The translations under genes and the position numbers were made by a program. The notes below the pieces were generated by a model. The model did not search any database and had not been told where the DNA came from. It worked only from the letters and a program-made list of their open reading frames with translations. From Candidatus Saccharimonadota bacterium (lineage in GTDB: Bacteria; Patescibacteriota; Saccharimonadia; Saccharimonadales; UBA4665), in the NCBI GenBank assembly GCA_002952755.1, contig CP025011.1, positions 1,380,001 through 1,412,000 of the forward strand: DNA of 32,000 nucleotides, read 5' to 3'. This document shows positions 5,628 through 23,109 of this stretch, one piece after another (position 1 is the first letter of the stretch; every line of letters begins with the position of its first letter).

Positions 5628-6719
5628 TCAGGCAGTCCTGTCTTGGAGTGCTGTAGCCAAGTACCGCAAAAAGGCATCACCTTCGGCACTCCATAGATCC
5701 TTATGCGCATCCAGTGCTTGTAGTGCCTTGTGTACATAAGTGTGTGTGGTCGTACAAGCCGCATTGAGCGCGCCTGATGATTGTATAATTTCTTTGCAGC
5801 GTTTGAACTCTGTCGGACTCAAATCTTGCTTGCCTAAACAGTGAGCTAGATAACCTTGCTCATCTTTCGGCGCATGATGCAGCGTATAACTGGTGAGCAC
5901 GGTGCCCTTGCCTTCGCGGATATCGTCACCAGGCAGCTTGCCTAAGTCGTTTTCATCACCAAAAATACCCAAGATGTCATCAGTAATCTGGAACGCTTTA
6001 CCGATGTATAGGCCATAGGGCGTAATGGCGTCGGTAGCCCGGCAGCCTGCGCCGGCCAGAACCATGCCAACGTGCAATGGATTAGTAATGCTATACAGCG
6101 CCGTTTTCCACTCCAGCACGCGATCGATATCGGCTTCGCTCGGATTGTTGCGCAGCTCGTTCATGATATCGAGCGCCTGGCCGTGAGCAGTAATGGTCAT
6201 CGTGCGATTTACTATACTTACTACATTGAGACGAAGTTGTGGATCGGCATCGATATTTGCCAAGATCATCTGTGCAGCATGCGCACCGGCCAGAGCAGCA
6301 TTGAGTGCTAAACTTATGCCGGCATGTGCCGCGTCACCTTTTAAGTGATGCTTCTGATGATATGTCGCCAACAATTCGTGCGCGCTTGGTCGACCACGCC
6401 GCAATGTAGAGCGGTCTTGGATATCATCAACTATGAGCATGTAGGCATGCAGCATTTCGATGGCGCGCGCAACCTGTACAATCATCTCCTGGTTGCTGCC
6501 GCCACACATTTCGTAGCCGACCATCACAAGCGCACCGCGGATGCGTTTGCCGCCGCGGGCCAGGATATCCAAAAAAATATCCGTATCAGTGTCCAAAACA
6601 ATCTGCCCATACTGCTCAAGCGTGGTTTCACGAACTTGATCGGCATAACTAGCGATATCGTCATCAATTGCTCGCTTGTAAGCCAGTAGCTTGGCCTGGG
6701 ACACGTCTGTATTGCTCAT
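5628..6719 (-). CDS. polyprenyl diphosphate synthase (trans-isoprenyl diphosphate synthase, FPP/GGPP synthase family)
   Basis: First Asp-rich motif LIVDDIQDRSTLRRGRP and second Asp-rich motif FQITDDILG. Length is 363 aa. Confidence 0.85.
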   Translation of the reverse strand: MSNTDVSQAKLLAYKRAIDDDIASYADQVRETTLEQYGQIVLDTDTDIFLDILARGGKRIRGALVMVGYEMCGGSNQEMIVQVARAIEMLHAYMLIVDDIQDRSTLRRGRPSAHELLATYHQKHHLKGDAAHAGISLALNAALAGAHAAQMILANIDADPQLRLNVVSIVNRTMTITAHGQALDIMNELRNNPSEADIDRVLEWKTALYSITNPLHVGMVLAGAGCRATDAITPYGLYIGKAFQITDDILGIFGDENDLGKLPGDDIREGKGTVLTSYTLHHAPKDEQGYLAHCLGKQDLSPTEFKRCKEIIQSSGALNAACTTTHTYVHKALQALDAHKDLWSAEGDAFLRYLATALQDRTA

Positions 6720-9141: not shown

Positions 9142-9263
9142 ACGGCGACCGCCGCAGCCGAAGCGCCACCCAACGCGATTCCGAATGCCAGCGCGTACAC
9201 TAATAATGGCCCTACTTCATTAATTACCGGTGGTTGGCCCACCGGAGTCATGGCGATAGTCAT
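9069..9263 (-). CDS. small hydrophobic peptide, 64 aa (MTIAMTPVGQPPVINEVGPLLVYALAFGIALGGASAAAVAVCGWGHVSVSQVDFWKALIKIQCK)
   Basis: The ATG at 9263 is preceded by AAGGAG with an 8-nt spacer. It has its own promoter-like sequence upstream. There is one Gly/Ala-rich TM-like segment and two Cys. It lies immediately 5' of the RRE-M50 gene on the same strand. Confidence 0.55.
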   Translation of the reverse strand: MTIAMTPVGQPPVINEVGPLLVYALAFGIALGGASAAAVAVCGWGHVSVSQVDFWKALIKIQCK

Positions 9264-9323: not shown

Positions 9324-9352
9324 ATACTATCCAAGGCTCGTCGAACTTGCAA
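9324..9352 (-). promoter_or_regulatory. candidate promoter of the peptide/M50 operon (-35 TTGCAA 9347-9352, 17-nt spacer, -10 TAGTAT 9324-9329)
   Basis: Hexamers read on the minus strand, about 60 nt upstream of the peptide ATG. Confidence 0.35.
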
Positions 9353-9363
9353 GTCTTTTTTAG

Positions 9364-9470
9364 AGCAGAACTCCTGTGCTGTGTTGAGTAGAGTCAGGCG
9401 TAGTGCAACCAGACCGACTTTAGTCGGCCTGCGTGAAACGCTCTACTCAACACAGCACAGGAGTTCTGCT
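9364..9470 (-). repeat. structured hairpin element, copy 1: 30-bp perfect stem (9364-9393 / 9441-9470) enclosing a 47-nt core shared with 22719-22766
   Basis: Left arm AGCAGAACTCCTGTGCTGTGTTGAGTAGAG is the exact reverse complement of the right arm. The reverse complement of the core is identical to copy 2 except for one T in a T-run. The strand is assigned from a G-T (G-U) pair versus an A-C mismatch in the inner 9-bp hairpin. Confidence 0.8.
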
Positions 9471-9542
9471 AAACTACAGCCAACATCGTCAGTCGCAAAG
9501 AAACGACTGCCCCAGCCAAAGCTCGGCAAGAATAGCTACAGC

Positions 9543-22579: not shown

Positions 22580-22687
22580 ATGAGCGAAAAAACGCGCTTC
22601 TGGATACTACTTGCGTTACTCGCACTAAGTCTTGTATTGCTATTCATACTCAACACAGCATATGGACAACAATTGCTAGTACGCTAA
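22580..22687 (+). CDS. 35-aa single-TM micro-protein (MSEKTRFWILLALLALSLVLLFILNTAYGQQLLVR)
   Basis: Not in the ORF track because it is under 60 aa. The ATG directly abuts the sortase stop (TAGATG), and GGAGCGAGG lies upstream. The stop TAA at 22685-22687 directly abuts hairpin element copy 2. Confidence 0.4.
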   Translation: MSEKTRFWILLALLALSLVLLFILNTAYGQQLLVR

Positions 22688-22797
22688 TAGAAACCGCTTT
22701 CACCTCCCAAAAGTAGAGCGTTTTCACGCAGGCCGACTAAAGTCGGTCTGGTTGCACTACGCCTGACTCTACTTTTGGGAGGTGAAAGCGGTTTCTA
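22688..22797 (+). repeat. structured hairpin element, copy 2: 31-bp perfect stem (22688-22718 / 22767-22797) enclosing a 48-nt core shared with 9394-9440
   Basis: Left arm TAGAAACCGCTTTCACCTCCCAAAAGTAGAG is the exact reverse complement of the right arm. The core CGTTTTCACGCAGGCCGACTAAAGTCGGTCTGGTTGCACTACGCCTGA equals the reverse complement of the copy 1 core plus one T. Confidence 0.8.
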
Positions 22798-23109
22798 CAC
22801 AGGTGTGTCGTCTTGGCTACTGCCAGAAGGGCGGTCTTCTTCGTCAATCGTAACAAGCTCAGGCACAGTCTTCTTGGCCGAGCGACGCCAGACGCGGACC
22901 ACAATTGCCGTAAGTGCAATAAGGCAAGCAATGGTGATAATACTTACCACCGCGATCCCCGTATTAGTGAGTGCCGTGCCCCCGCTATTATTTGCCGTAC
23001 TCGACGCACAAGACGTCGAACTACTGTTATAATCACACGAACCGTATGCGCCGGCACCGTATGCGGCCGCAACACGTTGCTCAATCCCACTCAATCTGTA
23101 CAACTGCAT
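22795..23109 (-). CDS. small bitopic membrane protein (104 aa) with an LPXTG-like LTNTG motif immediately before its TM helix
   Basis: AAGGT lies 6 nt upstream of the ATG. An S/T/G/A/N-rich 50-aa N-terminus with 2 Cys is followed by ALTNTG, the TM segment IAVVSIITIACLIALTAIVV, RVWRRSAKK, and a 24-aa acidic tail. There is no N-terminal signal peptide. Confidence 0.55.
   Translation of the reverse strand: MQLYRLSGIEQRVAAAYGAGAYGSCDYNSSSTSCASSTANNSGGTALTNTGIAVVSIITIACLIALTAIVVRVWRRSAKKTVPELVTIDEEDRPSGSSQDDTPV

What the first reader, a model, noticed from the sequence alone, without database searches (positions are those of the whole stretch)
9364..9470. Two-copy structured element: an invariant ~60-nt core at the tip of locus-specific, perfectly paired 24-25 bp stems (copy 1)
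Seen directly: 9364-9393 and 9441-9470 form a 30-bp perfect inverted repeat around a 47-nt centre. The reverse complement of that centre (CGTTTCACGCAGGCCGACTAAAGTCGGTCTGGTTGCACTACGCCTGA) recurs at 22719-22766 with one extra T. The innermost 6 bp of the stems (GTAGAG/CTCTAC) are also shared. The outer 24-25 bp of each stem are totally different between the loci, yet perfectly self-complementary in both. A conserved loop with variable perfect arms is the opposite of MITE, REP or attC architecture, where the ends are conserved and the middle varies. It is also far longer than needed for a terminator, and no U-tract follows on either strand. The core contains a 9-bp hairpin (CAGGCCGAC-TAAA-GTCGGTCTG) that is fully paired, with one G-U, only on the minus strand here and the plus strand at copy 2. 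In both cases that is the sense strand of the operon ending just upstream (dnaG-rpoD here, sortase there). This argues for a co-transcribed 3'-UTR RNA of about 107-110 nt. Each 5' arm contains an anti-SD-like run (CTCCT here, TCACCTCC at copy 2) and each 3' arm the matching SD-like run (AGGAG, GGGAGG), which may or may not be coincidence. Possible explanations include a novel ncRNA family with programmable duplex arms, a small element that inserts into or creates palindromes, or a protein-binding cruciform. I cannot match it to any RNA family I know.
Basis: partly seen in the sequence, partly recalled or inferred. Interest (0 to 1): 0.7.

Follow-up and report, generated by a model that had tools for sequence, protein, structure and literature searches.

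The report
Saccharibacterial hairpin element with unique arms
A conserved ~60-base sequence sits at the tip of a long hairpin at least three times in this Saccharibacteria genome, and in diverged form in two other Saccharibacteria; the 22-31 bp stem differs at every site, so it looks like an undescribed small mobile element that gains a new stem at each insertion.

Summary
Both hairpins (9364-9470 and 22688-22797) have perfect 30/31-bp arms around a core that is identical over 52 nt, and independent metagenome assemblies confirm them. I found a third, slightly mutated copy about 24.5 kb left of copy 1. A covariance model then found two diverged homologues in other Saccharibacteria (L126, L108).

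The family has a variable outer stem and two conserved blocks, GCGUUUCACGCAG and CUGGUUGCACUACGCCUGAC. Between the blocks lies a hairpin that changes by compensatory substitutions. It matches no Rfam family, phage or plasmid.

Copies sit in very short intergenic spacers. They point the same way as the flanking genes in 3 of 3 informative cases, and CTA follows the 3' arm in 5 of 5. Orthologous sites in relatives have no hairpin, so the whole structure is an insertion. Older copies have decayed arms.

Best reading (confidence about 0.5): a new small non-autonomous mobile element whose arms are made at the DNA level at each insertion, probably by snap-back synthesis. It is transcribed with the host operon as a very stable stem-loop. 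I could not settle where the arm sequence comes from. A host structured-RNA role for the core remains a serious rival. No mobilising enzyme was seen.

The parts
9364..9470 (-). Copy 1, whole hairpin (107 nt). The strand that reads 5' block first, here called S, is the minus strand.
   Evidence: Model R1 scores 113 bits on the minus strand and 58.7 on the plus strand.
9447..9470 (-). Copy 1, site-specific 5' arm on the S strand (24 nt; AGCAGAACTCCTGTGCTGTGTTGA).
   Evidence: No other match in the window. Unrelated to the arms of copies 2 and 3.
9364..9387 (-). Copy 1, site-specific 3' arm on the S strand (24 nt; TCAACACAGCACAGGAGTTCTGCT). Contains AGGAG.
9388..9446 (-). Copy 1, conserved unit (59 nt): GTAGAG, 47-nt centre, CTCTAC.
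   Evidence: Identical to copy 2 over 52 nt. Homologous to L126 and L108.
9429..9441 (-). Copy 1, conserved 5' block GCGUUUCACGCAG.
   Evidence: Alignment A2 and model alignments.
9410..9431 (-). Copy 1, inner hairpin P2 (9 bp, UAAA loop, one G-U at the centre).
   Evidence: Five of the nine hairpin pairs carry compensatory changes across the family.
9393..9412 (-). Copy 1, conserved 3' block CUGGUUGCACUACGCCUGAC.
   Evidence: GGYTGCACTACG occurs only at family members among 168 loci.
9361..9363 (+). TAG directly 5' of the element on the plus strand (CTA directly after the 3' arm on the S strand). This boundary motif is seen at 5 of 5 copies.
22688..22797 (+). Copy 2, whole hairpin (110 nt). 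The S strand is the plus strand. It lies between the convergent stop codons of the small ORF and the 104-aa gene.
   Evidence: R1 scores 125.8 bits on the plus strand.
22688..22712 (+). Copy 2, site-specific 5' arm (25 nt). Starts with TAG and contains TCACCTCC.
22713..22772 (+). Copy 2, conserved unit (60 nt): 5' block 22718-22731, P2 22729-22750, 3' block 22748-22767.
22773..22797 (+). Copy 2, site-specific 3' arm (25 nt). Contains GGGAGG. Its last 3 nt, CTA, are the stop codon of the convergent 104-aa gene (22795-23109, minus strand).
22647..22660 (+). 14-nt exact echo (TACTCAACACAGCA) of the junction between the conserved unit and the arm in copy 1. It lies in the small ORF 27 nt upstream of copy 2. 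Unexplained.
   Evidence: No exact match of 14 nt or more in about 2,900 random trials.

Best explanation
This is an undescribed family of small non-autonomous insertion elements restricted, as far as I could see, to Saccharibacteria.

The heritable unit is a ~60-nt core. It consists of a short terminal inverted repeat, a 5' block GCGUUUCACGCAG, a hairpin whose sequence may vary while its pairing is kept, and a 3' block CUGGUUGCACUACGCCUGAC. By inference, this core is what an enzyme encoded elsewhere recognises.

The element lands in very short intergenic spacers. It lies next to a TAG, often the stop codon of a neighbouring gene, and points the same way as local transcription.

Each insertion carries its own perfect inverted repeat of 22-31 bp. 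By inference, these arms are made at the DNA level by snap-back (fold-back, template-switch) synthesis. The core's terminal repeat folds the nascent strand on itself, and the polymerase copies the adjoining 22-30 nt in reverse complement. The arms then decay by point mutation.

Read-through transcription from the host operon would give a 100-150-nt stem-loop of -50 to -77 kcal/mol. That structure could block 3' exonucleases, stop transcription or be cut by RNase III. Those effects are consequences, not demonstrated functions.

Shown: the architecture, the multiple copies, the family beyond this genome, the insertion status, the boundary motif and the arm decay.
Inferred: mobility in trans, the snap-back origin of the arms and any RNA effects.
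For: 1. At least three copies lie in about 60 kb of one genome, with near-identical cores and unrelated arms. Copy 3 differs at 2 of 30 visible core positions.
2. The arms are 30/30 and 31/31 Watson-Crick pairs with no G-U. This points to DNA copying rather than selection on RNA pairing. The inner hairpin keeps a non-Watson-Crick pair.
3. Diverged homologues sit at non-orthologous sites in two other Saccharibacteria: L126 at 86.8 bits and L108 at 56.6 bits with R2. Their arms are imperfect: 5 differences in 25 bp in L126, and 2 transitions plus 2 indels in 30 bp in L108. All substitutions are transitions and show no strand preference.
4. Structure is conserved across the family. 89.8% of cells pair against 79% in shuffles, 10 pairs change on both sides, 0 of 500 shuffles reach this, and slid controls give 31-40%.
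5. The elements are insertions. The HisKA-DUF1361 spacer is 104 nt in L126 but ranges from a 6-nt overlap to 60 nt in all but one of about 20 relatives, the window itself among them; L104 (105 nt) is the exception. The convergent stops that flank copy 2 are 1, 1 and 7 nt apart in relatives. The holA end is overlapped by a convergent ORF in relatives.
6. No empty long hairpins occur in about 60 kb of this genome or in about 1 Mb of relatives.
7. CTA follows the 3' arm on the S strand at 5 of 5 copies. Two of these are not stop codons.
8. Template switching is documented to create, perfect and extend inverted-repeat arms (PMC8794818, PMC13100816, PMC8604942).
9. The core matches no Rfam family, phage or plasmid.
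Against: - No transposase, reverse transcriptase or HUH gene is present in the window or in the flanking contigs.
- Only five copies are known.
- All five metagenome samples carry copies 1 and 2, so no presence/absence polymorphism was seen.
- The relatives used for empty sites are distant (42-74% amino-acid identity).
- The source of the arm sequence is contradictory. In L126 the 3' arm carries the downstream gene's Shine-Dalgarno 5 nt before the ATG, which suggests a native flank plus an inverted copy. At copies 2 and 3 the ancestral spacers were probably only 1-7 nt, so both arms look imported.
- A simple template switch predicts no fixed arm length, yet the arms cluster at 22-31 bp.
- Conserved unpaired blocks, a covarying hairpin and co-orientation with genes are equally what a functional RNA would show.
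Confidence: 0.5

Rival explanations
1. A host structured RNA family. The conserved core is a protein-binding or catalytic RNA, or a small RNA released from operon transcripts. The long outer stem is a sequence-free processing or clamping stem, like the RNase III stems that flank rRNAs. The copies in this genome arose by duplication.
For: The conserved blocks lie in predicted unpaired regions, and the inner hairpin covaries. The S strand runs the same way as the flanking genes in 3 of 3 informative copies. Orientation is mixed with respect to replication, since GC skew is uniformly negative while copy 1 and copies 2/3 are on opposite strands. L126 is intercistronic, so it must be transcribed, and its 3' arm holds the Shine-Dalgarno of DUF1361. 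The S strand folds better in 3 of 4 complete copies.
Against: Unrelated perfect 30-bp arms around identical cores cannot arise by point mutation, so a DNA-level arm-making step is needed in any case. Arm decay shows no strand preference. The element is present at non-orthologous sites and absent from orthologous ones. A 30-bp perfect stem is too stable for a switch. There is no Rfam match. Frequency in other Saccharibacteria is low: 2 hits in about 0.7 Mb.
Confidence: 0.25
2. The core is a tiny element (about 60 bp, 6-7 bp terminal repeats) that targets the tip of pre-existing long palindromic terminators. On this view the arms are older host hairpins.
For: Each core sits exactly at the symmetry centre of its palindrome: TGA|TCA, AAA|TTT, CCA|TGG. 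Several known elements target hairpins (established knowledge: IS1111/IS110 in REP or attC sites, and class C group II introns after terminators).
Against: No unoccupied long hairpin was found in about 60 kb of this genome or in about 1 Mb of relatives; the longest perfect arm is 22 nt. The one clear terminator-like hairpin in the window has a 12-bp stem flanked by A and T runs. Orthologous sites in relatives have spacers of 1-7 nt or overlapping genes, with no hairpin. The arms have about 50% GC and no U-tract.
Confidence: 0.07
3. A DNA-level site: a cruciform or protein-binding or recombination site, for example crossover sites for inverting the 13-kb segment between the oppositely oriented copies 1 and 2.
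For: Copies 1 and 2 share 52 identical nt in inverted orientation 13.3 kb apart. The long perfect palindromes could extrude as cruciforms.
Against: Logan contigs from all samples join the same flanks, so no inverted arrangement was seen. The single copies in L126 and L108 have no partner in the DNA held. The hairpin covaries, which fits single-strand recognition rather than a duplex site. No recombinase gene lies nearby.
Confidence: 0.05
4. A CRISPR-like or guide-RNA system in which the arms are acquired 'spacers' that direct the RNA to targets.
For: The arms are of spacer-like length (22-31 nt) and unique. On the opposite strand the core superficially resembles a CRISPR repeat: a hairpin followed by CGUGAAAC.
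Against: The arms are fully base-paired to each other, so they are not available as guides. They match nothing in the window, the same-genome contigs or viral contigs. There is no array, no cas gene, and no CRISPR-DR hit in Rfam.
Confidence: 0.03

Closest known systems
REP / REPIN elements (repetitive extragenic palindromes mobilised by RAYT transposases)
   Same: Both are short, non-coding, multi-copy hairpin-forming repeats in intergenic spacers at gene ends, transcribed with the host operon. In this genome a GTAG motif sits at the foot of the conserved unit on both strands. The hairpin is imperfect.
   Different: In REP/REPIN the stem sequence is the conserved part and the loop or spacer varies. 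Here the centre is conserved and the 22-31 bp stems are unique to each site. No RAYT gene was seen. GTAG is not kept in L126 or L108.
[quoted passage not shown]
   Same: Both are small, non-autonomous and fold into a long hairpin. Both show presence/absence between lineages.
   Different: MITE terminal inverted repeats are the same in all copies and are flanked by direct target-site duplications. Here the long inverted repeats differ at every copy and no direct duplication is present.
IS200/IS605-family derivatives (PATEs) and their single-strand, hairpin-guided transposition
   Same: Both have a subterminal imperfect hairpin as the likely recognition feature, a fixed short motif on one flank only (TAG here, compare TTAC/TTGAT), and no direct target duplication.
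   Different: Those elements have two different end hairpins and no long inverted arms, and they show a strong orientation bias with replication. Here there is one hairpin, perfect arms and mixed orientation relative to GC skew (n=3).
Quasipalindrome template-switch mutation (fold-back DNA synthesis that perfects or extends inverted repeats)
   Same: It is the only documented process that produces perfectly complementary, locus-specific arms around a pre-existing short inverted repeat (PMC8794818, PMC13100816, PMC8604942).
   Different: It is known as a sporadic mutational process. It is not known as a regular accompaniment of a repeated element with a consistent 22-31 bp extension.
Integron attC sites
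   Same: Both are imperfect palindromes recognised as folded single strands, where structure matters more than sequence.
   Different: attC sites have conserved outer boxes and a variable centre, which is the opposite arrangement, and they are linked to an integrase and cassettes.
RNase III processing stems flanking rRNA and other stable RNAs
   Same: Both pair a long stem of unconstrained sequence enclosing a conserved RNA.
   Different: Those stems are imperfect, evolve slowly with the gene and are not multi-copy insertions. No processing data exist here.

Membership tests
MITE | Terminal inverted repeats share sequence among copies | tested here: not met
   Only the innermost 6-7 bp are shared. 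The outer 24-30 nt are unrelated.
MITE | Direct target-site duplication flanks the element | tested here: not met
   The flanks of copies 1 and 2, L126 and L108 carry no direct repeat.
REP/REPIN | The conserved palindromic stem sequence is the repeated unit | tested here: not met
   The stems differ at each site and the centre is conserved.
REP/REPIN | GTAG head next to the hairpin | tested here: inconclusive
   GTAGAG/CTCTAC closes the conserved unit in the window genome. L126 has GCAGTG and L108 has AAAGTG at that place.
REP/REPIN | A cognate RAYT (Y1 HUH) gene is present in the genome | not testable with these tools
   None is present in the window or in about 60 kb of the same genome.
IS200/IS605-derived PATE | Insertion 3' of a fixed short target motif on one strand, without duplication | tested here: met
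   TAG lies immediately 5' of the element on the non-S strand at 5 of 5 copies.
IS200/IS605-derived PATE | Distinct left-end and right-end subterminal hairpins, and no long terminal inverted repeats | tested here: not met
   The core has one conserved hairpin and long perfect arms.
IS200/IS605-derived PATE | Orientation bias relative to replication | tested here: inconclusive
   GC skew is negative across the window, while copy 1 and copies 2/3 have opposite orientations. n=3.
Intrinsic (Rho-independent) terminator | GC-rich stem followed by a U-tract | tested here: not met
   The scan does not call either hairpin. No T run follows on either strand and the arms have about 50% GC.
Any Rfam 15 family | Score at or above the family's gathering threshold | tested here: not met
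   No hits at gathering threshold. At E<=10, copies 1 and 2 match almost only generic microRNA-precursor models, and L126 and L108 match one model each (mir-643 and sR19, a C/D-box snoRNA); every match is far below gathering.
Integron attC | Conserved outer R/L boxes with a variable centre, and a nearby integrase | tested here: not met
   The arrangement is the opposite, and no integrase is present.
Retron ncRNA | Adjacent reverse transcriptase gene, with a1/a2 repeats enclosing msr-msd | tested here: not met
   No RT domain occurs in neighbouring ORFs. The element is only 107-110 nt.
CRISPR array / orphan repeat | Direct repeats alternating with spacers, with cas genes or a CRISPR-DR match | tested here: not met
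   The copies are single and 13-25 kb apart. There is no cas gene and no CRISPR-DR hit.

The most novel reading that the evidence does not exclude
A mobile element of a kind not described in bacteria. A ~60-nt core is targeted next to TAG, often a stop codon. At every insertion it manufactures a fresh 22-31-bp perfect inverted repeat by a defined snap-back or hairpin-replication step. The element therefore carries no fixed ends, and each copy becomes a unique long dsRNA-forming hairpin in host operons. A variant of this reading is that the arm sequences, which carry an SD-like run in 4 of 5 copies, are captured from elsewhere and give the RNA a site-specific function.
Probability: 0.3. Interest if true: 0.85.

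Novelty: new variant of a known kind. Interest (0 to 1): 0.66.

Why it matters
Saccharibacteria have tiny, streamlined genomes with very short spacers, so any repeated non-coding element that persists there is notable. This one reverses the usual layout of bacterial repeats: the centre is conserved and the arms are unique.

If the arms are made at insertion, this would be the first bacterial element known to create inverted rather than direct target-associated duplications. It would also be a natural case of template switching building long RNA hairpins in one step.

If instead the core is a functional RNA, it is a new Saccharibacteria-specific structured RNA class with two strongly conserved blocks.

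There is also a practical point. These 30-bp perfect palindromes around a repeated core break short-read assemblies of these genomes at every copy.

Tried and rejected
- Exact scans with the 21-mer GTAGTGCAACCAGACCGACTT found nothing in genome contigs, metagenome contigs or viral contigs. Two further core segments and both arms found nothing in viral contigs. A degenerate two-block pattern also found nothing in viral contigs.
As a result I could not scan the big collections with the better pattern.
- blastn of the core against phages and plasmids gave only 19-21-nt chance matches.
- I searched the protein database with translations of the core, hoping to catch spurious ORFs across other copies. 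One candidate shared words with the query and none scored. Logan contigs break inside the core, so such ORFs share 10 residues or fewer.
- I walked along Logan contigs. The left end gave copy 3. The right end is a tRNA gene, not a copy.
- The 1.45-Mb contig that carries the flanking proteins was never returned by the look-ups.
- The region downstream of rpoD in relatives is not syntenic, so I have no empty-site comparison for copy 1.
- I tested whether the region upstream of copy 2 is a degenerate older copy. It is not significant beyond the 14-mer (p=0.07 for the core; for the flanks).
- The arms share no common ancestry.
- Searches with R2 and filters off over about 190 kb of Saccharibacteria loci found no further members.
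- Literature searches for the motif strings and for comparable elements found nothing relevant.
Full report
**1. The observation**

The two hairpins are as described.
- Copy 1 has arms 9364-9393 and 9441-9470: 30 nt, 100% complementary, with 47 nt between them.
- Copy 2 has arms 22688-22718 and 22767-22797: 31 nt, 100% complementary, with 48 nt between them.
- The centres are identical over 52 nt in inverted orientation, apart from one extra T in copy 2.
- The shared part includes GTAGAG/CTCTAC at the foot of the centre.
- The remaining 24-25 nt of each arm are unrelated.

A 34-nt core probe finds only these two sites even with 3 mismatches, against 0 expected by chance. Nothing else in the window comes close. 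The next best hairpin is an ordinary 12-bp terminator-like stem. In 1.6 Mb of other loci, the longest perfect inverted repeat with a loop of 90 nt or less has 22-nt arms.

All z-scores are about -12.

**2. It is real, and there are more than two copies**

The organism is a member of Saccharibacteria. The best rpoD match to a species representative is 83%.

Proteins encoded in the window are found with identical sequence on short-read (k=31) Logan contigs from SRR9952756, SRR9952761 and SRR34954208/09/10. Every such contig stops inside or at the edge of the core.
- One contig of 13,300 nt spans exactly from copy 1 to copy 2.
- Other contigs end or start in the loop of the inner hairpin and carry the matching arm.

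This confirms both arms of both copies independently. It also shows that the core behaves as a repeat in the assembly graph.

I followed the left-hand contig to its far end, about 24.5 kb left of copy 1. It ends in a third copy (L094 1-63): TCGGTCTGGTTGCACTACGCtTGACTCTAt. A new arm follows (TGGAGGATGGAATAGTTGCCTGCTGCAAAT), and then CTA, the stop codon of holA.

The right-hand contig ends in a tRNA gene, not a copy. That makes three copies in about 60 kb.

**3. The family beyond this genome**

Exact-word scans of the large collections found nothing. A covariance model built from copies 1 and 2 (R1) did better when run over the Saccharibacteria loci I had fetched for other reasons. It found two diverged homologues on rhizosphere metagenome contigs: L126 1360-1460 and L108 about 5786-5936. 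A second model (R2) scores them at 86.8 and 56.6 bits. It finds no more in about 1 Mb, even with filters off on about 190 kb.

The alignment defines the family as:
- a variable outer stem;
- a 5' block GCGUU(U/A)C(A/G)CGC(A/G)G;
- an inner hairpin of variable sequence and size;
- a 3' block (C/U)(C/U)GG(U/C)UGCACUACG-NN-(U/G)GAC;
- the return strand of the outer stem.

Between the window and L126, four of the nine inner-hairpin pairs change on both sides and the central position stays non-Watson-Crick. Over the whole structure:
- 89.8% of cells pair, against 79% in shuffles;
- ten pairs carry double changes;
- 0 of 500 shuffles reach the observed values;
- slid controls pair at 31-40%.

With only four sequences this is indicative, not proof.

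No Rfam family matches any copy. At E<=10, nearly all matches at copies 1 and 2 are generic microRNA-precursor models, and L126 and L108 match one model each (mir-643 and sR19, a C/D-box snoRNA). All of these are far below gathering score. Phage and plasmid collections give only chance words.

**4. Context**

None of the neighbouring genes is a mobile-element gene.

| Copy | Position | Orientation evidence |
|---|---|---|
| Copy 1 | 72 nt after the rpoD stop, beyond a weak terminator-like site (9504-9518), and 11 nt before a weak promoter-like TTGCAA-17-TAGTAT | All flanking genes are on the minus strand |
| Copy 2 | Fills the gap between the stop of a 35-aa ORF after sortase and the stop of a convergent 104-aa gene | Convergent genes, so not informative |
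| Copy 3 | Abuts the stop of holA | Other flank unknown |
| L126 | Fills the spacer between a histidine kinase and DUF1361 | Both genes on the same strand as the element |
| L108 | Lies between an FMN-reductase-like gene and an oligoribonuclease-like gene | Both genes on the same strand as the element |

Searches give the L126 and L108 contexts. In the three copies flanked by co-directional genes, the strand that reads 5' block first (S) is the transcribed strand.

GC skew is negative across the whole window, while copy 1 and copies 2/3 have opposite orientations. Polarity therefore follows transcription rather than replication, though n is small.

**5. The hairpins are insertions, not decorated terminators**

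- The kinase-DUF1361 gene pair is conserved in about 20 relatives. Its spacer ranges from a 6-nt overlap to 60 nt in all but one of them (57 nt in the window itself, with no element; L104 has 105 nt). In L126 it is 104 nt.
- The sortase / small-ORF / convergent-gene arrangement is conserved in L099, L103 and L121. There the two stop codons are 1, 1 and 7 nt apart, as TAG-N-CTA.
- In the closest relatives with long contigs (L166, L167), the end of holA is overlapped by a convergent ORF and no hairpin is present.
- No unoccupied long hairpin exists in any sequence examined.

This rules against the idea that the core entered pre-existing long stems.

**6. Properties of the arms**

- In the young copies the arms are perfectly Watson-Crick with no wobble pair. 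This is the signature of copying, not of selection on RNA pairing.
- In L126 the arms differ at 5 of 25 positions. In L108 they differ by 2 substitutions and 2 single-base indels in 30.
- All seven substitutions are transitions. They give 3 wobbles and 4 mismatches on the S strand, and 4 wobbles and 3 mismatches on the other. The arms therefore decay as a DNA palindrome without a visible strand preference.
- Arm length is 22-31 bp in all copies.
- On the S strand, CTA follows the 3' arm in copy 1, copy 3 and L108. It forms the last three arm bases in copy 2 and overlaps the last two in L126. That is 5 of 5, and in two of these it is not a stop codon (nominal p about 2e-4 for those two alone).
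- On the 5' side, a TAG lies 0-10 nt upstream in all four copies whose 5' flank is known.
- Four of five 3' arms contain GGAGG, AGGAG or GAGGT, against about 6% expected per arm. In L126 this run is the Shine-Dalgarno of DUF1361, 5 nt before its ATG.
- The arms match nothing else in the window, in the same-genome contigs or in viral contigs.

There is one exception to that last point. A 14-nt exact echo of the junction between the conserved unit and the arm in copy 1 lies 27 nt upstream of copy 2, inside conserved coding sequence. I cannot explain it.

**7. Interpretation**

Three observations need a process that moves or copies the core and equips each new copy with a freshly made inverted repeat:
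- identical cores with unrelated perfect arms;
- presence at non-orthologous sites and absence from orthologous ones;
- a boundary motif, and arms that decay with age.

The only documented way to make such arms is fold-back (template-switch) DNA synthesis at a short inverted repeat (PMC8794818, PMC13100816, PMC8604942). The core's own 6-7-bp terminal repeat could nucleate it.

I therefore favour a small non-autonomous mobile element with snap-back-generated arms (confidence about 0.5).

What I could not settle is the template for the arms.
- L126 suggests that the 3' arm is the native spacer and the 5' arm its inverted copy.
- The empty-site comparisons for copies 2 and 3 suggest that both arms are foreign to the site.
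- The consistent length and the TAG boundary hint at an enzyme-defined step, such as a nick at TAG with run-off or hairpin-transfer synthesis. This is speculation.

No candidate enzyme was seen.

**8. Rivals**

The main rival is a host structured RNA (confidence 0.25). It rests on the conserved unpaired blocks, the covarying hairpin, the co-orientation with genes and the intercistronic position in L126. It does not remove the need for a DNA-level arm-making step. The two views can be combined if the element moves through, or acts as, RNA.

The other rivals all fail specific tests listed in the report:
- targeting of pre-existing hairpins (0.07);
- a duplex DNA or recombination site (0.05);
- a guide-RNA or CRISPR-like system (0.03).

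**9. Comparison with known systems**

The element works most like REP/REPIN or MITE-type intergenic hairpin repeats, and possibly like single-strand hairpin-guided IS200/IS605 derivatives, which also have a motif on one flank and no direct duplication. It fails the defining features of each:
- the long inverted repeats are not conserved among copies;
- there is no direct target duplication;
- there is a single hairpin;
- there is no replication-strand bias.

It is not an intrinsic terminator, since it lacks a U-tract. It is not an attC site, which has the opposite arrangement. It is not a retron, CRISPR repeat or any Rfam family.

I file it as a new variant of small intergenic hairpin repeats. 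There is a substantial chance (about 0.3) that the arm-making mechanism is categorically new.

**10. Limits**

- Only five copies are known, and one of them is seen from one side only.
- The relatives used for comparison are distant.
- No expression data are available.

Noticed in passing
window 22580-22687 (+): A 35-aa ORF directly after sortase (MSEKTRFWILLALLALSLVLLFILNTAYGQQLLVR) is conserved in position and sequence in relatives L099, L103 and L121 (35-38 aa). The gene calls on the Logan contigs miss it. It is probably a real small membrane protein coupled to sortase (its ATG abuts the sortase TAG).
   Followed up: partly
window 22647-22660 versus 9444-9457: A 14-nt exact match (TACTCAACACAGCA) links the junction of the conserved unit and the arm in copy 1 with native coding sequence 27 nt upstream of copy 2. 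About 2,900 random trials gave no match of this length. It may be a trace of how arm sequence is templated, or it may be chance.
   Followed up: partly
L108 5773-5785 and 5930-5942: The flanks just outside the L108 hairpin look like the termini of the core (GTAGTTTTTCGTTA on the 5' side, CTGACTCTAC on the 3' side; 12 nt are identical to the window's core end). This could mean a nested insertion into an older copy. Alignment p is about 0.04.
   Followed up: partly
window 9364-9470 and 22688-22797; Logan contigs L001-L004, L085-L092: Short-read (k=31) assemblies of this organism break at every copy of the element. Contig ends may therefore be a cheap way to count copies in such MAGs.
   Followed up: yes
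window 9324-9352 (-) and 9504-9518 (-): A weak promoter-like TTGCAA-17-TAGTAT lies 11 nt downstream of copy 1, and a weak terminator-like hairpin with a T-rich tail lies between the rpoD stop and copy 1. Copy 1 may therefore sit in a poorly transcribed gap.
   Followed up: partly
L092 12294-15674 (same genome, about 3-6 kb left of the window start): Two further sigma-70-family genes (406 and 687 aa) lie in tandem next to polA, in addition to the rpoD in the window. That is unusual for such a small genome.
   Followed up: no
L165 14419-15209 (same genome, about 13 kb right of the window end): A PhdYeFM antitoxin / PIN toxin pair lies about 320 nt before a tRNA gene, and that tRNA gene is where the contig ends.
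   Followed up: no
window 9209-9243 and Logan contig SRR9952756_60330 start (window about 9231): One sample's contig starts at about 9231 instead of at the element. Its sequence differs from the window by at least one base near 9225-9231 (ATTAATTAAG against ATTAATGAAG). This points to strain variation just downstream of copy 1.
   Followed up: no
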